A stretch of 64,000 nt of DNA. Source: Felis catus. Lineage: Eukaryota. Both the position numbers and the translations under genes were made by a program. Of this stretch, positions 4,201 to 60,651 are shown piece after piece (positions within the stretch are counted from its first letter, which is position 1; each line of letters starts with the position of its first letter). The notes beneath the pieces were generated by a model, which saw nothing but the letters and a program-made list of their open reading frames with translations, was not told the origin of the DNA and made no database searches. Location of the stretch: assembly GCF_018350175.1 (NCBI RefSeq), contig NC_058373.1, forward strand, positions 59,644,001-59,708,000. The letters are read 5' to 3'.

Positions 4201-6911
4201 ACATCAAGATTAACCACTACTTCTTTCACCCAACCCTAGACAGTATTAAAACACAAACAATTCCATCACCTTCAGGGATGGTATCTAGCAGTTAATAATA
4301 AATCCCCACATATATTCACTCAGCAATCATTACTTCATTTGATAAAGGTCTCTGACAGAAAAACTGATGTAGTCCTTTCCCTGTCTGGAAGGGGTGATAT
4401 TAGGTGTATTATTAGGTCCCAAGAGAAAGGCAGGAGCAACCAGTTAGTTGTTCAAGGAAAAAGTAACTTTTGAGCTAAATCTTTTTGAAAAGACCAATTT
4501 GGGGTGGGCAGGTATACCAGGAATTCCAAATAAAGGAATCGGCATGTACAAAAAAATATTCCATTTTATGCTATCCATATGGGCTTTTTCTGTATGTACT
4601 CCAGAAATGCTGTATATCAAATATCATTGAATGCTACCGTCCTAGATGGCAAGGCACAAATCTTGCCATAAGTAGATGTTGAGGACTTAAAACTTAATGC
4701 TGATCAGTAAGTTTTCAGAAATCATCAATAAATTTTCAGATATTATCACATTTAAATAGTGCTATTTATTTCCCCAGAGAAATCTGGATACTCCCATTCT
4801 TACAAACTACAGACAATTAACTCCACAATGGAATTATCAGTCTATAAACTCAACCGCAAAGAAATCTTTCACTTTCACTACAAAATGAAAGTGCAAAAAA
4901 TACCCAAAAACAAAGGAGATGAAAAACTTGCTCAAAATAGGTCAATTTAGTTTCAATAAGGATTCTTTAACTGTTCCTGTCTAACTTGTGAGCTAGCTCT
5001 CTTGATCTGTACACAGGAATACAGCAGTCAGAAAATATTTCCAGCTGAAGTATTAATAAATAAAAAGTTGAATGTGAAGAAATAAGGACATGATCAACAA
5101 GAGACTTCCTTGATTCCAAATTAGTCATTCAGAAAACTGATCCTTCCTGCCAGCATTGTGGAGGATGACCTTACCTTCTAGACCAATTAAAAGCAAACAC
5201 CACAGCAGAGATCCACCCAATTTGGGGGATAGTTTAGTGCATGACAGGATATGCAGTTTTTAGGGAAGCAGATACAACAATTTAAATTAGGAAAGAATAC
5301 CTTCAATCAAAAAAAAAAACAAAAACAAAATCTGCTTTAAACTAATAGTCTCATAGCCCACTATTCTGCAGTAATTCACTCTATGTTGACCCCTGTAGTC
5401 ACAGAAGCACCACCCAGTTCTGATTACAACCCCATCCTGTCACTCTAAGTACAGTTACACCCCTTCAAAGTTAACCGCATGGTTAATTGATTGTGAAGAG
5501 CTGTTTCTAAGGGAGAATGTGACTTCTGGAGATGCATAAAGAGCACATATGATTTGTAATCAGTACTACCAGTTAACCACACGGATGTACTGGACACAAA
5601 ATCTGTTGCCTCTAACACATCTTTCTGATTCAGGTGGTCTTCCTTACAGGACTTTACCCTTAGCAGGTCAGCCGAGTCCTTGCTGAGTGAAGAACCAGTC
5701 AGAAGTTACACACCAACTTTGTTTTACTGACACTTTTGAATACAATTCGTTTTTAACTAACGGTATTGTGGCAGGAGGAGATAAAAAATCAAGTACTGTA
5801 ATTAGTATGGATATATTGAGCCATCCCAAGTTTTAATCATGGCTCTCTGTGGGAAAGATCTGGGAGTTTAAAAACAAACGAAAACATTCCGGTCTACTTG
5901 GCCAGAAATCCTATTTGCTGTCTCTCCCTACCCCCAACTTTTTGAGTTAGTTGTATCCTAAGGAATTTACACCCTTGTTCAGTTATATCACCCTCAAGTG
6001 GACTATTTCTCCCCACAGTGGTTACTTTCTCACTGGAGTCTTTCACGGCATTTTTCAGAAATTCTAATTAAAATTAACACTTCAGACAGATTCTGATGAA
6101 ATGATTCTTTTTACCTATTTTTTTTTTTTTTGGATGGGATTCTGCTGGTGCTGAGATGTGATCAGCTTAATGAAGAAAGTGTGCACCATGCAATGGGACA
6201 AAATAACTGCCTGCCTCAAGAAAGCACTTATGACCATTCTGCAGCCACTGAGTGACCTTGGCTAGAAACCAATGGCTGCGGGGCGTGGGGCAAGAAGAAA
6301 GGAAGTGCTCTGGGGGCCCAGGGCCTCTGCACTTGGTGAAACGTTCGTTTCCAGCATAAGGCCCTGGGATGCCTCATTTGTAGGACGCAGAGCATTAACA
6401 CTGACTCACCCAGAAACTGTAAAGATACCAATCTAAGCGGGGTAGGAGGTGGTTAAACCTTCTGCAAATAGGAAGTGCCGCAAGAGCACGGAGGTAAGGA
6501 TGTGGCCCTGCGTGAATGGGGCCTTCGGGTTTCCTTCCCGGATCTTGCTCCTAGGCGATCAGCACCGACTTCTCTCTCGGCAAGGCAGCGCGGCCCCCCG
6601 GGGTGGGAAATTTGCCGGCTGCAGCGAGGCCTGCTGGAATGGTGGGAGGGCGCCGGCGCTGCGTAGGCCCAACCGTTCCCGCGCCTTCGCCCCCGGCCCA
6701 GCCCGGCTCTCCCTCCCATCCACGCCCCGGCTTAGTGGCCTCACCAAGGGGCGAAGAACTCGACGAGCATGAGGCCCGCAGAACCCGTGTCCGAGATGCG
6801 ACTCTCGAAGTTGTCGTCAGTGAGTTCCAGCACGTCGGAGGCGGCGGCGAGACGGGCCGTGGCGAATAGCAGCGCCACGCCCGGGAACAGGGCTCGGCAG
6901 CGGGGGCGCAT
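1149..6911 (-). CDS. PDIA3: Protein disulfide-isomerase A3 (ERp57), 5' part; exons 6745-6911 and 1149-1227; gene continues beyond the left edge
   Basis: Spliced translation [56 protein letters not shown]|[26 protein letters not shown] has a signal peptide and thioredoxin WCGHC site. GT-AG borders; 167+79 nt = 82 codons. Confidence 0.97.
1507..1706 (+). mobile_element. Can-SINE (older type)
   Basis: GGGGCACCTGGGTGGCTCAG head, CT tract, poly-A. Confidence 0.9.
2561..2703 (+). mobile_element. 5'-truncated Can-SINE
   Basis: CTGACTTTGGCTCGGGTCATGA...CT tract, A-rich tail. Confidence 0.8.
3060..3277 (-). mobile_element. Can-SINE
   Basis: 16-nt TSD TCTGTATTCCTTTTAT. Confidence 0.93.
6745..6911 (-). 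CDS. PDIA3: PDIA3 exon 1 (coding part)
   Basis: ATG at 6911, donor GTGAGG at 6744; signal peptide plus [11 protein letters not shown]. Confidence 0.96.
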
Positions 6912-7069
6912 GGCGACGAGGTGAGGTTGGGGGCGGCCGGGAGGGTCGGGGCTCGGCGGGGACTGCAAAGGCCGGCCGCGACCACGCACCTTCTGCTTGC
7001 GCTCGCGCGTCTGGCCCAGGCGGACCTGCAGCCGGAGGTCCCAACCCCCCAGCCCGGCTCGGGCCGCAG

Positions 7070-7088
7070 TGTGGCAGCCTCCGATTGG
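7070..7088 (-). promoter_or_regulatory. ERSE-like element CCAAT-N9-CCACA
   Basis: Minus strand reads CCAAT CGGAGGCTG CCACA, with an exact 9-nt spacer; consensus is CCAAT-N9-CCACG. Confidence 0.65.
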
Positions 7089-7910
7089 CTGCGTGGCGCC
7101 TGCGTCGGGCGGGCGGGACCAGCTGGTAACCGCCGAGTGGCCGGAGCGCGGGGCGGGGCTGAGGCGGCGGGTTCCCCGGCTGACCGGGCTGGCCGGGGGC
7201 CTGGGCTGGGGGCCGGGGTCCGGGGGCTGGGCCTGGGCCTGGGCCTGCGGCGAGCCAGACCTTAGGGAGCAAGTGGGGGTAGAGTGGGACGGGGCAGGGC
7301 CGAGCTGGAAATGGGGCGCTGCAGGGCTGGGAACGGACCCTGAGCTCGTCTTGCGTGGGGAGAGCCGAGTTCAGAGGGCGCGGGAGGCGGAGACGTGAAG
7401 TCAGGGCTGAGTGGGCGGAAAAGAGCCTGGGCTGAGGTGAGGCCCAGAAGCGGGTATTGACAGATGGAGCTGGCATCCGAGGAACACACTTGGGACGGAA
7501 CACATTTTCGTAATGTCAGGCTGCTGCAACTTGTCCAATTCCTCTTGGTTTGTCTTTCGGAGGCAGCCCTGAGTCCCTCACTGCCTCACCACATTGCATT
7601 GCCTGATTACCTCAGGTCCCGGTGGTGCTCCGATTTCCTCTTTGTCCAGCCCTGGGACTCCTTCCCTGTGGCTGCTACTCTTAATGAGAAACGATGTGAC
7701 ACAAGTAAAGGTGCCTGGCCACTTGGTCTACCGTGCAATGTCTCTATTAGGACTCTCAGCTCCTTTTGTTTAAAAAAAACCTTGAGTCTTAGTACAATGT
7801 GTTTGACTTCTTAAGGGCAAAGAAGGTGGGAGAAGGGGAAGGAAACTTCTAATCTTTGCTGCAACTCCAATAATGAAATGACTCTTGGTTTTTCCTTTAT
7901 TTTAACAGAC

Positions 7911-8055
7911 ATGGCCACCAGTCACCCAGCAGGACACGTGCAACTGCCCCGAGCTGATGCCATACGTTCACGTCTCATTGATACTTTCTCTCTCATTGAG
8001 CATCTGCAAGGCTTGAGCCAAGCTGTGCCACGACACACTATCCGAGAGATACTTG
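7911..8055 (+). CDS. CATSPER2: CATSPER2 first coding exon
   Basis: Acceptor TTAACAG at 7908, ATG at 7911, MATSHPAGHVQLPRADAIRSR, donor GTCAGC. Confidence 0.93.
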
Positions 8056-11000
8056 GTCAGCATTTGTTTCTTAACTAGCATAAATTTAAAACTCCCCTTC
8101 ACACCCTCAAAAGAGTAGGAAGCAGAAAGACAATTTTAAGGACGAAAAATTCAGGGATGATTGGTGTGGTTGCTAGTTTGTAAATGATACCAAACTTGAT
8201 AAATTAAGGGCTTTATAAGTAAAGCTCTTTGAACCCAGGAGATAGGACCCATGTTGCTCACTTTTAGGCCTAGGATAACTATTAGCTCTGGCTGATTTGG
8301 AAGTTTCTACCAAAGACCCTGAAAACTTTGACGGTTGAATCTGTGCCTTTTCTCTTGGGCATTGACAGTGTTGGTCATAAGCAATGTATTAGCTCTTACT
8401 TCAAACTAATGTCAGTTGCTGTAAGAACAGCAAGGCAATCCCCTGCATTACAGGACCCGTTATGTAACCAGTATTCCTGCCCCGGTCCTACCTGCTCTCC
8501 ATATCACTGAGAGACTTCTCTTTATGTTTATCCACTGTGCCCTTTATTTTCTGGTATAGATCCTTCCGGTCAGAAGAAGCTTATGTTGGGAGATCAACAC
8601 CAGCTTGTGCGCTTCTCCATAAAGCCTCGACATGTAGAACGTATTACACGTGGCCGGAGACTGATGAGCAGGCTTCATGTGCGCTACAGTCAGAGGCCAC
8701 CTCTTTCCTTGTGGGCTGGATGGGTCCTTGAGTGTATCCTTTCATGCCCCTCACTTTTATCCCATGCCTTTACTGTCTCTCTTGCCTCGTCATCTGCCCG
8801 ATGACTGACTTTCCCTTTTCCAAACTCCATTTTCTTCTCATCCTCACTGGTTCTATTCTTACCCTTATTATTTCACCTGTATAAAAAAGAATTCCACTCT
8901 GGATGTTTCCTTAAGAGAAAACAGGCCCTCTCTTCACAAACTTCATCATCTTTCTCATCTTTTTGAATACAATCGTACTGATGGTTGAAATAGGTGAGAA
9001 CTGACATTAAATGAAAGAGGAAGTGGCTATGAGTCATTTTTCCTATAAATTGATCATTTTTCATTTCTCAATGTTACTTGAATTGTGATAAGGACACCTA
9101 TATTGAGTCTCCTGGAGTATGATTTGTGCAACTGTTAAGACCTGGAAACATTTGGAGGGCTTTCAAAGAGTATGGTAGATACAAAGCAAGCTATACACTG
9201 AAGAATATAATAGAGTTACACGAAACCGAAGATGGGAAGACCAGTTATATTTCTTGTGTCAGTTTAGTTTAATATTTGTTTGAATTAGCCTTTTGTATTA
9301 GAGGTATTGGTTGGTGCCTGTCAGTAACTGATATCACATTTACATTTTTTACAAGTATGTCAAATATTAAGTACAAATAAGAAAGCTCACAAAGTGTGTA
9401 AAGTTAGACACAACTAAAATATTGGATGAGACAAAACATGACTTAAGAGTAAATGACTCTAAAATCAGTCCTAAATTATATGAAATGTATTAGAAGTAAA
9501 AGAACATCTGGAAAATCAGCTCATTTGATTATCACCTCAAACAGATTGCTCAGAAATGAAAAGGACAGTACTTACTTCCTTGCTTCATCCTCACTGTTTT
9601 GAGGAACTTTCCCATTTAAAAATCCTTTAATGTAGGGGCACCTGGGTGGCTCAGTCAGTTGAGCATCCGACTTCAGCTCAGGTCATGATCTTGAGATTAG
9701 TGAGTTTGAGCCCTACATCAGGCTCTATGCTGACAGCTCAGAGCCTGGAGCCTGCTTCTGATTCTGTCTCCTCCTCTCTGTGCTCCTCTGCTGCTCATGC
9801 TTTGTGTCTCTTGCTCTCTCAAAAAAAAAAAAAAAAAAATATTTAAAAAAAATTTTTAAGTATTTTAATGCAACCAGCTCAAAGATACTTAAATATACAA
9901 TACTTGATGTCATTGATCCACTACAGTATACTATATACTTTGAAGTATTTTATTTTCTCCCCATTGTGGTAAGGATTTTGAACTAAGTCACCCACATTTC
10001 CAATTTCTTTTACGATAACTGGCATGTATTTGCCTTGAGGGGTTAGGGATGTAGTCTTAAGCCTTGGAATAAAGTAAACAGCAATAAATGTACGGGATTT
10101 CCTAGATCTAATGGACAAATCAAAATAGAATACCCCTCTAGTTGGTAAAACAGCTGGATATGAAACATGATCACTGTGCCATAGGATAGTAGGTTGCCTG
10201 AGTGGGAATTATCTGACAAGTTCAGGAAAATTGTATTAAGTACGTTCTCATGGTAGAAAAGCAGGAGGGATTTTGCAAAGGGAAAGAATTTGTGACTAAC
10301 AGATTTCTTTAAACAGGCTAATTCATATGATAAACGTTAAGACTGTTTAGGCTTTAAAAAATTTTTTTCCAGATCACAGAGAATGTTGTTACAGATGGGG
10401 GAAAAATCATAATTAGCAAGCAGTTCTCTAGATGAAAGCTCCCCAATCTTTTTTGTCTTGTGATTTTGTCTCCCAGTTAGCTCTAAACTTGAAAATCTCC
10501 CTAGGACTTTTAATCATTCCATTATTTGTATGTGATGTAAAATTTTTTTTTAATATTTATTTCTTATTTTTGAAATCATGAGTGAGGGAGGGGCAGAGAG
10601 AGAGGGAGACACAGAATCTGAAACAGGCTCCAGGCTCCAAGCTGTCAGCACAGAGCCTGACCCAGGGCTCAAACTCAAGAACCGTGAGCAAACTCACAAA
10701 CCGTGAGATGACCTGAGCTGAAGTCAGACGCCTAACCGACTGAGCCACCCAGGCGCCCCTCAACTTGCTTCTTTTTATCACATGCAAATTGGGGCACCTG
10801 GGTGGCTCAGTCGGTTGGTTAAGCATCTGACTTCAGCTCAGGTCATTGTCTCATTTGGCTCTGTGCTGACTGCTTGGGGCCTGGAGCCTGTTTTGGATTC
10901 TGTGTCTGCCACTCTCCAGCTCATGTGCGTAAGCTCTCAAAAGTAAAAACTTAAAAAAAAAAAAGGAAGTTGAAGTAAAAATAATGCTTTAGAGTAGCAT

Positions 11001-14000
11001 ATTATTCAATATTGTATTTTAATGTATATTATATAATGTAAAAAATTATGTTAGCTTATTTTCATTTTTGCCATTTTATAAGTGATTCGTGCTGTTTTTA
11101 AAGTAAATGTATGATTTCTTCATAAATGAATTTTTAAAGGCCATTATATATTGTTTGGTCCTGAATCAAATATGTTTATTTTACGTATTATGTTTTTAAA
11201 TGTGATTTTTTGTTCCTTTTTAAAAATTGAGATATACTTGACGTATTTCATTATATTAATTGCATAATAATAATTATGTATTATATGTTAAGTACATGTT
11301 AAGGTGTAGGTGTAAATTTAATTACAAATTAGGGTGTAAAAATTAGAAAAAAATCTACTTTCACAGTGATATTGGTAATTCTACTTTTCATTTTAAACAT
11401 CAATTTGGCTTATTTTTTTAATTTTCACATTTTGTTTCCAAATGATGAGAGGGAGAAAAGTAAGAAGATTTGACTCATTTGCAATCCGTTTTCTGAAAAT
11501 AACACATTGCAAGTGTGAATAGTCTATTTCTAACAAAAAAAAATTTGTGTATAATGTCATTATAATGTTTTACATTGAGTTTGAAGTTCTAGAGATATCT
11601 TGTACTATATATAAGAATAATTCTGCAAGTTTATCTCAACATGATCTTCATCAGTTTCTATAAACTGCATTCATCTGATCAAAAACTTTATATAGCATTA
11701 GTGTTCCTTGCTTCATTGTGGATATAATGAGCCAAATCTTCTTTCTTTCCTGCCCCCATCATTTTTTAAAGAAAATATATAAGGGGCCCCTGGGTGTCTC
11801 AGTTGGTTAAGCATCTGACTCGTGGTTTCAGGTCAGGTCATGATCTCATGTGTTCATGAGCTCGAGCCCCTCATTGGGCTCTTTGCTGACAGTGTGGAGC
11901 CTGCTTGGAATTTTCTCTCTCTTCCTCTTTTTCTGCTCCTCCCCAACTTGTGCTCTCTCTCTCTCCTTCTCAAAATAAGTAAACATTTTTTAAAAATTTT
12001 TAATAAAACACATGATTTGTCCACAAATGAATTCATTTAGTTATTTTAAAAAATTTTTAATGTTTGTATTTATTTTTGAAAGCAAGAGAGTGAGCAGGGG
12101 TGAGGTGGAGAGAGGGGGACAGGGTGTCTGAAGCAGACTCTGTGCTGATAACAGAGAGCCTGATGGGGGGCTAAAATTCCCAGACCATGAGATCATGACC
12201 TGAGCCAAAGTTGAAGTTGGATGCTTAACTGACTAAGCCATATCAGTTATTTTGGCATGGGAATGAAATATATTTTATGTATTATATGTTTTTAAATTTA
12301 ATATTATGGATATAACCAGACAAAAAAACAGTAGCAATTTCAAATTGTTTAAGTGTCAAAATCTACACAGCAGTTTATGTTGTTCAGAGTGACTAAGTAT
12401 GTTCTTCTAATCTCCATTAACAGCCATGATATCAGTCATAGTGTATTTGGAGGCTCTTAGATTGTTCCATTTCAAAGGGAAATGTATCAAATTATTATTT
12501 AGCTTTTTTTTAAGTTTATTATTTTGAGAGGGAGAGAGCATGTGCACGCAAGTGGGGGAGGGGCAGAGAGAGAAAGTGAGAGAGAGACTCTCAAGCAGGC
12601 TCCCCACTGTCATTGCAGAGCCCAATGTAGGGCTCGAACTCATGAACCATGAGATCATGACCTAGGCCAAAATCAGAGTCAGACACTTAACCAACTGAGC
12701 CACCCATGCGCCTCCCAAATTATTATTTAGCTTTTAAGCCTATTTTTATTTCATTGTGTTTTTTTTTTTCCTACAGCATGGTATACATCTATTAAATACA
12801 TAAAAAAAAATAAAGAGGCTGAAAGATAAAGGTGATGTTGAAGTATAGCAATTAGCAAACAGGATTCTAGAGAGAAAGTATAGGATTTAATTTGCTTTGC
12901 TGAACAAAATCAGTTTTAGAGAAGAATGGGAAAGTTTTAAAAGCTAACAAATATAGAACCAAAAATTTTCTTATTATAAAGTATTTTTTAATGTTTATCT
13001 ATTGTGAGAGAGAGAGTGAGTGAGTGAGTGAGTGAGGGAAAGGCAGAGAGAGAGAGAATCCCAAGCAGCCTCTGAGCTGCCAGCACAGAGCCCAATGTGG
13101 GACTTGATCTCACAGATTATGACCTGAGCAGAAACCAAGAGTCAGACACTTAACCAACTGAGCCACCCAGGTGCCCCTCAAATTTTTTTTTTAACATAAC
13201 TCAGTATGTCCTATGGATCTGGCTTCTTGTTTCTACTTCCCTTACCAAGCGCTTTACATATCATGGCCCTACATTTTCATTCTATTCTCAAGACCCATTG
13301 CTTCTTTGTGAAGTTTGGGACCGGGGTACCAGTACAGCAGACAGTGTTGGTGGTAGTGAAAAAAGTAATCCCTTGGTGTCTCTGTGACCCCAGAGTGGGA
13401 AGGTAGTGACTTGCAGCTGTTAGACATATCAATACCAGCAGGAGATGAGTTGTAGCTATTTTTCACGGTCAATTCTGACCTCCCCTATATTTCACAGGTT
13501 GAAAAAATACTGGTGTTAAGAAGAGAAACAAAGTGGCTCAGTTGGTTTAGTGTCCAACTTTTGATTTTGGCTCACATCATGATCCCAGAGTCATGGGACT
13601 GAGCCCTGTGTCAGCCTCTGCACTGAGTGTGGAGGTGTGGAGCCTGCTTACGATTCTCTCTCTTACCCTGCCCTTCTCCCTCACCTGCACACTCTCTCTA
13701 AAAAAAAAAAAAAGAAAAAAAAAGAAAAATGAAAAATAAAACAGCAGTGGGCACAACTGTAGTTTATAATAGTTTCTGATCTGATCATTCTATATTATTC
13801 AGCCTCCCAGTTCCTTAACCTTTATTTGTCTTTCACTCTACTCTCACAGAATTGCTTGAATCCTCAAATACCAAACTGTGGTCACTGAAGCTGAGTCTGG
13901 AGGTGGCAGCTTGGTTCATCTTGCTTATTTTCATCTTGGAGATCCTTCTTATGTGGATATCCAGCTTTTTCCTCTTCTGGAAGAATGCTTGGAATGTGTT

Positions 14001-17000
14001 TGACTTTGTTGTCACCATATTGGTAAGGATAGGTATCCTGAGGAATAGTGTGGTGGGTTGAGGAATAAGCCTAGGTCAATCAAAATGACAAGAAAAGTTA
14101 ATTAGATCACAAGACGAATTTCATTATTTTGATTTTTTTTCTAAAACTAAAGTCAGTCATTGCAGAAGTTGTTGGTATTAGAAGCAAGACAGAATCAAAC
14201 CGCAACATTAACCCCAACAATAACATCTGCCTGTTACTAAGCACTTATCAAGTGCCAGGCACTGTTGTGTTTTATATGTATTTTCTCAGTTGAGCTCCAC
14301 AGCAACCCAATGAGATAAACATTATATTAATCCCCTTTTTTATGTTTGAGCAAATTGAAGTGCAGAGTTTAAGTAATTTAGTACAAGAAGGCTGAATAGG
14401 AAACAGTCCCCAGAAAATGCTATTCAAGGGATAATGCCCAAGGAAATATGAAGAAGATGAGATAAAGAAGGGGTAACTGTGCATGGGTGCTTTGGGGTAT
14501 ATTGTACTCATAATCTATGTATTTCCTACAGTCCCTGCTTCCTGAGGTTGTGGTGCTGGTAGGGGTAACAGGCCAGTCTGTGTGGCTCCAGTTGCTAAGG
14601 ATATGCCGGGTGCTAAGATCTCTCAAACTCTTTGCACGATTCCGTCAAATTCGAGTCATTATTTTGGCCCTGATGAGGGCCCTCAAGGTGATTTGAGTGT
14701 TGCAGCTAAACCAAGTGGGCAGGGTGGGTAAACATGGGAGTTTTAACATAAAACAAGTCTGGGTGTGTCAGAGAAGGCAATGAAAGACCCTATGAAATAC
14801 CATTGGGTGAGAAAGGGCTGGGGAAAGCTGCTGTGGGCTAGAGATAACTGGGCTTGGGAGTGGAAGTGAGGGTTTTGGTGGGAGTTTGCCAGGGTGGGCT
14901 TGACTCTGCTGTAGGTAGAATCAGCCTAGTCTGGCTCGGTGCTGACTTGGGGTCATGGCCTCTAGAGTATGACCTTCCTCTTGATGTTGCTGCTCATCTT
15001 CTTCTACATTTTTGCTGTGACTGGTGTCTACTTCTTTGAGGACTACACCCGTTCAACTCGCCAGGACCTGGAGTACCACATGTTCTTCTCGTAGGCAGGA
15101 CTGGGGGAATCCCGGGTGGGGGGAGAGAATTTGGGCAAGAAACTGGGAACCTAGTCCAAAGTAAGTAATACAAAAAATATAGTCTATTTTAAGAAACTGG
15201 AATAGATCATAGTAAGGAGAAGGAAAGAGACAGCAAAAGAACAGTGAGTGGTATTAGCTCTGATTTTGAGGATAGGGTGACTAGTTCCAGGTTTGCTCTG
15301 GGTTTTGAAATTTAAACATACCCTCATCAGCCATCTTTAAATAGCAGTATATTTTAGTGATTAAGCTCTGGTTTCTATGCCTCAGTTACCTCTTCTGAAA
15401 AATGAGAATAATTGTAGCACTACCTTATAGCATAAGACTGAAGGATAAAAGTAATGCATCTTTGCACTTAGAATGGATTTTAACACAATAAGTGATCAAC
15501 ACCTGTTACTATGACCCTCAAACATGTCACTGGTTTTACCCCAAAGTCTCAGTATGGGCATTACACATGCACACACCTATACACATTCAAAAGTAAAATC
15601 CTGACAAGATCTTTGTCTAGAGAACACTGACTGCTAGTAGAAAATCAACTGGATTTAGATGAGATAGTTACGTATGAACCGGAATCCAATCTTGCCAGCA
15701 CCTCTTAGGTCTCAGGCTAATAGGTAGCTTTGTAAGAGTATTAAGTTAGGGAAGTCCTAAATATTCATCCTATTTAGGCCCTGATATTTTCAATAAGTTG
15801 TATTATGGAGAACTAGGAAGGAAAGAAGGAAAATTTATATACCTTCCTGAGACCTTTTATGACATATTCATTATTATTAATTATTTGGGATCACGTGTTT
15901 ATGTCACATATCTGTCTGTTTACCTAAGAATCACTTCATACCAGAGAACTAAATAGGAATGATGTTTGCCAAATTTTGAAGTGATCTTTTAGGTGAAGGC
16001 CATAGAAGAGTGAAAAACGATGTTACAAAAGAGATATGTAGTTGGTGATTTATTCAATTTTTTAAAATTCAGCCAGTACCTATTTATTGAGCACCTACTA
16101 TGTTGTAGGCACTAATGGAATAGTGAGAGATATTCTTGGATTATTTATGATAAAGGAAAACCTAATAAAACAACCCTGACTGAAGAATGATTCGCTAAAA
16201 AATTGATAGAAAAGAAGCTGAAGTCAGAGCAAACTACAAAGAAATGTTATGTTGCTTTAAGAGTAGGAAAGATACCATATCTGAGAGATTTAGATCTCTG
16301 TTCTGTCTGTACCCACAACTCCTTTTTCTTTAGGGACCTTCTGAATTCCCTGGTGACAGTATTCATCCTCTTCACCATGGACCATTGGTATGCATTGCTT
16401 CAGGATACCTGGAAGGTGCCTGAAGTCAGCCGTACCTTCAGCAGCATCTATGTCATCCTTTGGTTGTTACTTGGTTCCATTATCTTTCGAAATATCATAG
16501 TAGCCATGATGGGTAAGCACAAAAGAGGTGAAACTTGGTTGAGAGGGGTAGTTGGGAATAAATTAGGGTGAAAACTAGAATTAGTAAATTATGTATAGAG
16601 AGAACCTGAGGTAGCAGGAAGGCTTGGGGCCTGGAATGGATATTTCACTTGGTTTCTCCCCACCCAAGCCCTCTCCTCAGGTCTATTCACCGCTGTCTCC
16701 CAACTCCTAATGGCCCTTTCGGGCAGTTACTAACTTCCAGAATATCAGGAATGAGCTGAACGAGGAGATGACACATTTGGAGGTTCAACATAAAGCTGAC
16801 ATATTCAAGCGGCAGATTATCCAGAGGTCTGCTTCCCCATTTTCAAACCCAAGTTTAGTTCTGAAGAGTATCCTGACCTCATTCTCTGTTTCTACTCCTT
16901 GGCTTTGACCCCATTTTTCCCTTTGTGACAGAAAATTTACCCCAGGGTTAGAATTCCCCGCCTCTAGAACATTGCCTGATTCTTTATTCACCATTGGGAC

Positions 17001-39185: not shown

Positions 39186-55054
<15,869 letters not shown>

Positions 55055-55339: not shown

Positions 55340-55442
55340 AGGACAGAAGGGAGTTGGAGGGGCATCCAGGGCAAGTAGAATGGGCCACATTAGAATGGGC
55401 AGAAGTCCTGGGGATCTTGAGTCATCTCCTGAGGATGGGGAA

Positions 55443-60261
<4,819 letters not shown>

Positions 60262-60651
60262 GGCTTGAGGGTCCGGCTGTGGAATCCCGGGGTGGGAGCT
60301 GGAGCAGGGCAGGAACAGGGAGGGAGGATGCAACCAGAAGGACTGAGGACTGGAACTGGGTGCGAGGCTGGAGCCGAAATGGGGGCCGGATTGGAAGCTG
60401 GAGCAGGAGAGGAAGACGGTAGCAACCAGACTGCAGGAGAGGCGCAATGAGGTAGCGGCTGGCTGGCGGAGGAGGGAGGTCCCAGCCGCAGTCTCCAGGG
60501 GTGGGGCTCACGCAGGCCCCGCCTTTCCGCCTGCCACCGCGCTAGGTATGCGGGGGCAGAGGTGGGAAGCACCGCCAGGTAGATTAGGGGACCCGAGCTT
60601 CGCAACCTTTGGCCGGGGATGCCGGCCCACCTGGGTTGAGGTCGCCCAGAT

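What the first reader, a model, noticed from the sequence alone, without database searches (positions are those of the whole stretch)
8734..8924. U12-type (minor spliceosome) intron immediately before the S1 helix of CATSPER2
Seen: this 191-nt intron starts GTATCCTTTC, a perfect U12 5' consensus. It has TTTCCTTAAG at 8906-8915, about 10 nt from the terminal CAG, and no polypyrimidine tract (AGAAAACAG). All three hallmarks are present, and it is the only such intron among about 48 in the window. Known: Nav/Cav alpha-1 genes carry conserved minor introns near the start of domain I S1 (Wu and Krainer's AT-AC work). Inference: this may be a relic of the same ancient intron (my alignment puts it about 4 nt from the SCN position, so strict homology is unproven). 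It would make CatSper assembly sensitive to U11/U12/ZRSR2 activity in spermatids. The branch site ends in G rather than the consensus C, so it may be slow.
Basis: partly seen in the sequence, partly recalled or inferred. Interest (0 to 1): 0.7.

Follow-up and report, generated by a model that had tools for sequence, protein, structure and literature searches.

The report
Known minor intron in CATSPER2
This is a genuine rare-class ("minor", U12-type) intron in the sperm calcium-channel gene CATSPER2 that is already catalogued in human and mouse; it lies four bases away from the well-known minor intron of sodium and calcium channel genes and is likely a separate ancient intron rather than the same one.

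Summary
Window 8734-8924 is a 191-nt GT-AG intron of CATSPER2 with a 9/9 U12 donor, an 8/9 branch site 10 nt from the end and no pyrimidine tract. It is already catalogued: Olthof 2019 lists the human (175 nt) and mouse (170 nt) orthologues, with human signals nearly identical, and lists CATSPER1 too. Mouse testis retention is only 2.8%, so "slow" is unsupported. The Nav/Cav homology idea fails as strict homology. In this genome five Nav/Cav domain-I introns end 4 nt before the S1 Phe (phase 2), CATSPER2's 8 nt before (phase 1). CATSPER1/3/4, TPC1/2 and the other domains examined have no intron there. A coral-like and one other metagenome locus carry the intron at the mammalian site, so any slide predates the cnidarian-bilaterian split. 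Near-misses within 4 nt are not enriched (11 of 20, expected 8.4); the U12-only coincidence has p≈0.05. New lead: the next acceptor carries a perfect U12 branch motif (13811-13819; 1 of 74 U2 acceptors), which might let the minor donor skip the S1 exon. No earlier scan note covers this intron. Low interest.

The parts
8560..8733 (+). CATSPER2 coding exon before the minor intron (ends in W-V-L-E plus the first base of the Cys codon)
8734..8924 (+). 191-nt GT-AG U12-type intron, phase 1, 8 nt before the conserved S1 Phe codon (8933)
   Evidence: orthologues catalogued
8734..8743 (+). U12 5' splice site GTATCCTTTC (9/9 to consensus)
   Evidence: human row AGT|GTATCCTTT
8802..8804 (+). In-frame stop reached if the intron is retained, before any transmembrane helix
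   Evidence: reading frame 8511-8804
8906..8915 (+). Proximal U12 branch site TTTCCTTAAG (8/9), branch A 10 nt from the 3' end
   Evidence: human row ATTTCCTTAAGA
8916..8924 (+). Purine-rich 3' end without pyrimidine tract, ending CAG
8925..8993 (+). 69-nt exon encoding helix S1, flanked by phase-1 introns on both sides
8994..13849 (+). Next intron: U2-type donor and pyrimidine tract
13811..13819 (+). Perfect U12 branch motif TTCCTTAAC, 31 nt before the next acceptor; use by the minor spliceosome is untested

Best explanation
This is an ordinary GT-AG U12-type intron of CATSPER2, orthologous to the catalogued human and mouse introns, which is likely removed constitutively and efficiently by the minor spliceosome and is likely a CatSper2-specific ancient intron rather than the Nav/Cav domain-I intron. 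Mechanism, from established minor-spliceosome biology and inferred for this intron: U11 reads the donor at 8734, U12 pairs with the branch site at 8906-8915, and the CAG 10 nt further on is used without a pyrimidine tract, joining the Cys codon just before helix S1. Retention would give a stop at 8802-8804 before any membrane helix, so failed minor splicing would lower CatSper2 output (inferred, decay presumed). Shown: signals, junction, phase, offset from Nav/Cav, conserved position in a coral-like locus. Inferred: spliceosome use in this species, efficiency (taken from mouse) and independent origin.
For: Signals and junction. Catalogued in human and mouse with near-identical signals. Mouse testis mis-splicing index 0.028 at 240 TPM, about 7th lowest of roughly 31 testis values counted by eye. 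Read-through protein records from primates, bats, carnivores and artiodactyls begin C/R-I-L, i.e. the same donor. Gap-free register with Cav2.2 and Cav3.2 domain I and with many homologues. All 5 Nav/Cav domain-I acceptors read lie 4 nt before the S1 Phe (4 with both ends read, phase 2), CATSPER2's 8 nt before (phase 1). No intron at the S1 start in CATSPER1, 3, 4, in either domain of TPC1 and TPC2, in SCN4A and CACNA1F domains II-IV, or in CACNA1G domains II-III. CATSPER1's own minor intron is in S5, at a site with no Nav/Cav counterpart within 10 nt. Of 7 intron-bearing metagenome CatSper2-like loci covering the S1 start, 2 have the intron at the mammalian site and 0 at the Nav/Cav site. CatSper introns within 4 nt of a Nav/Cav intron: 11 of 20, expected 8.4, p=0.17.
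Against: New U12 introns arise very rarely (PMC3584512 and PMC10639083, passages), which favours common descent of two nearby U12 introns. The chance that either CatSper U12 intron falls within 4 nt of either Nav/Cav U12 site is about 0.05. CatSper2 has 3 of 6 introns within 4 nt of a domain-I intron (expected 0.74, p=0.03 uncorrected, best of 16 comparisons). CatSper genes share 4 of 20 exact positions with Nav/Cav domains (expected 1.15, p=0.02; one lies in a loosely aligned loop), so some shared ancestry of gene structure is plausible. Transcript-derived protein records with the upstream intron removed and this one read through exist (P0001, clusters of P0036 and P0054), so retention occurs at some unmeasured level. 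No RNA reads of this species were examined.
Confidence: 0.7

Rival explanations
1. The intron is the Nav/Cav domain-I S1 minor intron, slid 4 nt upstream by a compensated pair of boundary shifts in a pre-cnidarian ancestor.
For: Same class, 4 nt apart, p about 0.05. De novo U12 introns are very rare. NALCN has a U2 intron 3 nt before the same residue, 1 nt from the Nav/Cav site, so the region holds a cluster of old introns at -8, -4 and -3. Four exact CatSper-Nav/Cav position matches.
Against: Different phase in a gap-free alignment. The -8 site is fixed from a coral-like locus to mammals. Three CatSper paralogues lack it. CatSper2's one exact match is to Cav1 domain IV, which has no S1 intron. 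Near-misses overall are at chance. Sliding is reported as at most very rare (PMC10639083 and PMC7730772, passages).
Confidence: 0.2
2. The minor donor has two competing U12 branch sites: a weaker proximal one that includes the S1 exon and a perfect distal one (13811-13819) that would skip it, giving a minor-spliceosome-tuned off switch (a stop in this species, an S1-less frame in deer and bats). This is compatible with either origin.
For: The only TCCTTAAC on the + strand of the window lies 31 nt before the next acceptor; 1 of 74 U2 acceptors examined has such a motif. The human CATSPER2P1 entry has the same donor, a 7,386-nt intron and branch GCTTCCTTAACT, score 92; I infer that this is the skipping intron but could not see the human sequence. 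Four stored proteins lack the S1 exon, three of them with the residue expected from this donor. The skip junction reads as a stop here.
Against: 31 nt is far from the 11-13 nt optimum (PMC3584512). The motif also fits the U2 branch consensus and is followed by a normal pyrimidine tract. The alternative-splicing table of Olthof 2019 has no CatSper row. The skipped proteins may be gene-model errors at an unusual intron. The motif was not seen in this spacing in L105 or L123.
Confidence: 0.15
3. The intron is really processed by the major spliceosome or is a hybrid, for example from the GT 2 nt upstream.
For: A GT lies 2 nt upstream of the donor. The coral-like orthologue at the same site is U2-type.
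Against: 9/9 donor, branch site at the right distance and no pyrimidine tract. Only the 8734/8924 pair gives the conserved protein. Classified minor in human and mouse.
Confidence: 0.03

Closest known systems
Human and mouse CATSPER2 minor intron (Olthof et al. 2019, PMC6717393, supplementary tables: human chr15:43647119-43647293, 175 nt; mouse chr2:121410207-121410376, 170 nt)
   Same: Same gene, GT-AG class, same donor as human including three exon bases, branch core TTTCCTTAAGA as in human, similar length.
   Different: Only the species and the length (191 nt).
Domain-I S1 U12 intron of Nav and Cav alpha-1 genes (described in PMC6259924 section 7; Wu and Krainer 1999 not held)
   Same: U12 class; just before helix S1 of a homologous 6-TM domain.
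   Different: 4 nt further downstream and phase 2 instead of phase 1; AT-AC in SCN4A and Cav3, GT-AG or GC-AG in Cav1.
CATSPER1 minor intron (same tables)
   Same: GT-AG, phase 1, short, in a testis-expressed CatSper pore subunit.
   Different: Lies in helix S5, not before S1; weaker branch site.
Nested U12/U2 introns such as SRSF10 and Drosophila prospero (PMC8329584, passages)
   Same: A U2 intron and an exon could lie inside a longer U12 intron, and skipping would depend on the minor spliceosome.
   Different: Here one U12 donor would choose between two U12 branch sites; not demonstrated. CatSper is not named in the main text of the vertebrate twintron paper PMC3564746.

Membership tests
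U12-type (minor) spliceosomal intron, GT-AG subtype | 5' splice site RTATCCTTT | tested here: met
   9/9 at 8734-8742
U12-type (minor) spliceosomal intron, GT-AG subtype | Branch site TTCCTTRAC-like | tested here: met
   8/9 at 8907-8915; the same core in human scores 77 in the published table
U12-type (minor) spliceosomal intron, GT-AG subtype | Short branch-to-acceptor distance (optimum 11-13 nt) and no polypyrimidine tract | tested here: met
   10 nt; pyrimidine fraction 0.1 at -13..-4
U12-type (minor) spliceosomal intron, GT-AG subtype | Boundaries coincide with a real exon junction | tested here: met
   Orthologous proteins read across it; at least 90 of 120 listed homologues carry the spliced S1 form; no RNA reads of this species examined
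U12-type (minor) spliceosomal intron, GT-AG subtype | Splicing depends on U11/U12/U4atac/U6atac | not testable with these tools
   U11-knockout testis paper PMC12956336: RNA-seq at P14, not among the hits for CatSper+U12, supplement unreadable; Zrsr1 testis paper not held
Nav/Cav domain-I S1 minor intron (strict positional homologue) | Same aligned codon and phase (4 nt before the S1 Phe, phase 2) | tested here: not met
   CATSPER2 is 8 nt before, phase 1
Nav/Cav domain-I S1 minor intron (strict positional homologue) | U12 class | tested here: met
Nav/Cav domain-I S1 minor intron (slid homologue) | Ancestral or intermediate state at the Nav/Cav site in other CatSper genes, or excess of near-coincident introns | tested here: inconclusive
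   0 of 7 intron-bearing metagenome loci and 0 of 3 paralogues at the -4 site; near-misses at chance, U12-only p about 0.05; sampling outside animals lacking
Nested U12/U2 intron (twintron-like) arrangement | Second U12 branch site and acceptor usable by the same donor | tested here: inconclusive
   Perfect motif present but 31 nt from the acceptor; human pseudogene entry suggestive
Nested U12/U2 intron (twintron-like) arrangement | Both splice routes seen in RNA | not tested
   No reads examined; only four protein records lacking the S1 exon; no CatSper row in the published alternative-splicing table

The most novel reading that the evidence does not exclude
CATSPER2's minor donor chooses between two U12 branch sites, a weak near one that keeps the S1 exon and a perfect far one, apparently also present in human, that drops it. 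Minor-spliceosome supply in germ cells would then set how much functional CatSper2 is made. The intron itself would be a 4-nt-slid copy of the Nav/Cav domain-I intron, frozen since before cnidarians (that part alone about 0.2).
Probability: 0.12. Interest if true: 0.5.

Novelty: already known. Interest (0 to 1): 0.2.

Why it matters
As it stands it matters little: the intron is catalogued, and the testis enrichment of Catsper1/2 among minor-intron genes is tabulated. It does mean that two of the four CatSper pore subunits depend on the minor spliceosome, a testable contributor to sperm-motility defects when minor splicing fails. If the distal branch site is used, it would be a rare case of U12-to-U12 exon skipping in a fertility gene. 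If sliding were shown, it would be a rare ancient U12 slide and a marker tying CatSper to four-domain channels.

Tried and rejected
Literature: 'CatSper2'+'minor intron' 0 papers; 'CatSper'+'U12' 13 papers by listing, three opened at passages, none discussing this intron; CatSper+intron+evolution+voltage-gated+exon-intron 3, 'CATSPER2'+'intron retention' 1, 'CATSPER2'+'exon 4'+'splice variant' 3, all judged off-topic from the listing. So the positional comparison and the distal branch motif were not found in print in these searches; subscription journals are not covered. Horiuchi 2018 and Wu and Krainer 1999 were not held. The supplement of PMC12956336 was unreadable and may bear on CatSper2 retention. 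A Pfam Ion_trans search of the genome did not list the window's CatSper2 exons. An HVCN1 pattern found nothing, so HVCN1 is untested. Rejected: realigning by one codon to merge the two introns (the phases differ and the alignment is gap-free); 'slow because of the G' (mouse 2.8% retention; catalogued Cav branch sites score as low or lower); reading the three CatSper2-domain-I near-misses as support (best of 16 comparisons; overall rate at chance). Dropped before counts: 3 non-core Nav/Cav introns, the turret introns of domains I and III, CACNA1S, Cav3 domain IV, TPC and NALCN. In the metagenome set, 33 of 40 loci were set aside (no introns anywhere, S1 start not covered, or not CatSper2-like by eye).

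Full report
1. Observation. The intron is as described: 8734-8924, 191 nt, GTATCCTTTC at the start, TTTCCTTAAG at 8906-8915, AGAAAACAG at the end. The upstream exon matches mouse CatSper2 in PDB 7eeb_B and 177 proteins, the named ones among the 120 listed nearly all CatSper2. tblastn puts the exon break at these bases, in phase 1 of the Cys codon in W-V-L-E-C-P-L-F. Against the consensus quoted in PMC6259924 the donor is 9/9 and the branch site 8/9. The pyrimidine fraction at -13..-4 is 0.1. A donor and branch/acceptor pair 50-250 nt apart arose in 5 of 200 simulated windows. Retention runs into a stop at 8802-8804. Uniqueness in the window was checked only in part.

2. It is already catalogued. 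In Olthof et al. 2019 (PMC6717393; I saw passages, section 10, supplement 4 whole and search rows of supplements 1, 2, 3, 5, 6 and 8) Catsper2/CATSPER2 is a minor-intron gene in both species. The human donor is AGT|GTATCCTTT and the branch ATTTCCTTAAGA (score 77.0); the mouse branch is GCTTCCTTAAAA (74.8); lengths are 175 and 170 nt. CATSPER1 and the pseudogene CATSPER2P1 are listed too, and Catsper1/2 appear in the testis-enriched 'cilium' set. Mouse testis mis-splicing index is 0.028, about 7th lowest of roughly 31 testis values counted by eye, at 240 TPM. A non-C branch ending is therefore shared with human and mouse and goes with low steady-state retention. Against this, some transcript-derived protein records have the upstream intron removed and this one read through (P0001; clusters of P0036 and P0054); they give no level. 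Read-through records from several mammalian orders start C/R-I-L, which shows the donor is conserved.

3. Relation to the Nav/Cav domain-I intron. PMC6259924 (section 7 read) describes a U12 intron at D1S1 of Nav and Cav but not NALCN. I read the paralogues in the window's own genome. Their names are assigned from recalled sequences, except CATSPER1, whose donor and branch match the published human row. SCN4A, CACNA1S, CACNA1F and CACNA1G introns end 4 nt before the conserved S1 Phe in phase 2; the CACNA1H acceptor is at the same place. CATSPER2's ends 8 nt before, in phase 1. The register is gap-free: phmmer aligns ECPLF with EWPPF of Cav2.2 and CPLF with NPWF of Cav3.2, and many homologues agree. 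CATSPER1, 3, 4, both domains of TPC1 and TPC2, domains II-IV of SCN4A and CACNA1F and domains II-III of CACNA1G are uninterrupted there. CATSPER1's minor intron is in S5. NALCN has a U2 intron 3 nt before the equivalent residue.

4. Is 4 nt closer than chance? I mapped the introns of 15 domains on one alignment (226 core columns, 37 distinct Nav/Cav positions). Of 20 CatSper introns, 4 match a Nav/Cav position exactly (expected 1.15, p=0.02; the null ignores proto-splice-site bias and one match is in a loop) and 11 lie within 4 nt (expected 8.4, p=0.17). CatSper2's exact match is to Cav1 domain IV. Its 3 of 6 near-misses with domain I give p=0.03, the best of 16 comparisons. For U12 introns alone, the chance that either CatSper one is within 4 nt of either Nav/Cav one is about 0.05. 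This is suggestive but not persuasive.

5. Age of the site. A metagenome scan with a CatSper2 alignment gave 40 loci. Seven are intron-bearing and cover the S1 start. L105 (71% identical to a Pocillopora protein) has the intron at exactly the mammalian site but with a U2 donor, and shares the next two intron positions. L123 has it at the same site with a U12-like donor (GTATCCAG) and branch (GTCCTTCAC). L100, L102, L103 and L118 lack it; their nearest named relative among my stored proteins is from Allacma fusca. L101 has an intron inside S1 instead. None has the Nav/Cav site. So the -8 site predates the cnidarian-bilaterian split (inference), with conversion to U2 in the coral-like locus, a known fate (PMC3584512 passages). 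CatSper2-like proteins also occur in fungi, a malawimonad and Rhodelphis. An unchecked earlier scan note reports the D1S1 intron at the human position in a non-animal eukaryote. Any slide would thus be very old, and sliding is described as at most very rare (PMC10639083 and PMC7730772, passages). Because new U12 introns are also very rare, I leave sliding at about 0.2.

6. The next intron (8994-13849) has a U2 donor and a pyrimidine tract, but also a perfect TTCCTTAAC at 13811-13819, 31 nt before its acceptor. It is the only TCCTTAAC on the + strand of the window, and 1 of 74 U2 acceptors examined (script-called, first pass) carries such a motif. The published CATSPER2P1 entry has the same donor, a 7,386-nt intron and branch GCTTCCTTAACT, which I infer to be this skipping intron. 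The S1 exon is 69 nt, phase 1 on both sides; skipping gives a stop in this species, and four stored proteins lack the exon. Against: the spacing is far from the 11-13 nt optimum, the motif also fits a U2 branch site, the published alternative-splicing table has no CatSper row, and the proteins may be model errors. Known relatives are nested U12/U2 introns such as SRSF10 and prospero (PMC8329584 passages).

7. Physiology. U11 loss impairs mouse spermatogenesis (PMC12956336; abstract and section 31 read), but its RNA-seq is at P14, the paper was not among the hits for CatSper+U12 and its supplement could not be read. Zrsr1-mutant spermatogenesis defects I know only as summarised in Olthof 2019. 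Sensitivity of CatSper assembly to minor splicing is therefore a reasonable inference, shared with about 700 genes, and not shown.

8. Verdict. Real, correctly classified, already known; not a strict homologue of the Nav/Cav intron; not evidently slow. Interest 0.2. The two open leads, ancient sliding and a second U12 branch site, are each testable and each more likely wrong than right.

Noticed in passing
window 13811-13819: Perfect U12 branch motif 31 nt before a U2-type acceptor of CATSPER2; it may pair with the minor donor to skip the S1 exon. The human CATSPER2P1 entry has a matching motif.
   Followed up: partly
G000:C47, CACNA1F domain-I intron (loci L035-L038): The 630-nt D1S1 minor intron starts GCATCCTTGG, a GC-AG U12 variant; the mouse row in Olthof 2019 has GT.
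   Followed up: no
G000:C1 NALCN (L082, L084-L085): A U2 intron lies 1 nt downstream of the Nav/Cav D1S1 minor-intron site, a candidate one-base slide with conversion.
   Followed up: partly
CATSPER1 (L055-L056), CATSPER3 (L057-L061), window 14688-14965: Exact intron-position matches: CatSper1 after S4 with Cav1 domain II, CatSper3 with Nav and Cav1 domain III, CatSper2 with Cav1 domain IV. Each subunit matches a different domain.
   Followed up: partly
L105:4118-4446 and L123:1474-1603 (approximate): Non-vertebrate CatSper2 loci with the intron at the mammalian site: U2-type in the coral-like L105, U12-like in L123.
   Followed up: yes
window 8745-8883: The body of the minor intron is 76% pyrimidine while its 3' end is purine-rich.
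   Followed up: no
window 6741-7370 (-) and 7464-7911 (+): A PDIA3-like first exon (name recalled) lies head to head with CATSPER2 in a GC-rich island. A lynx model extends CatSper2 by 82 residues from 7464-7709, probably untranslated sequence.
   Followed up: no
window 39524-54000 (+) and 55400-60400 (-): STRC-like and CKMT1-like exons (names recalled), the usual neighbours of CATSPER2; neither gene is in the published minor-intron lists.
   Followed up: partly
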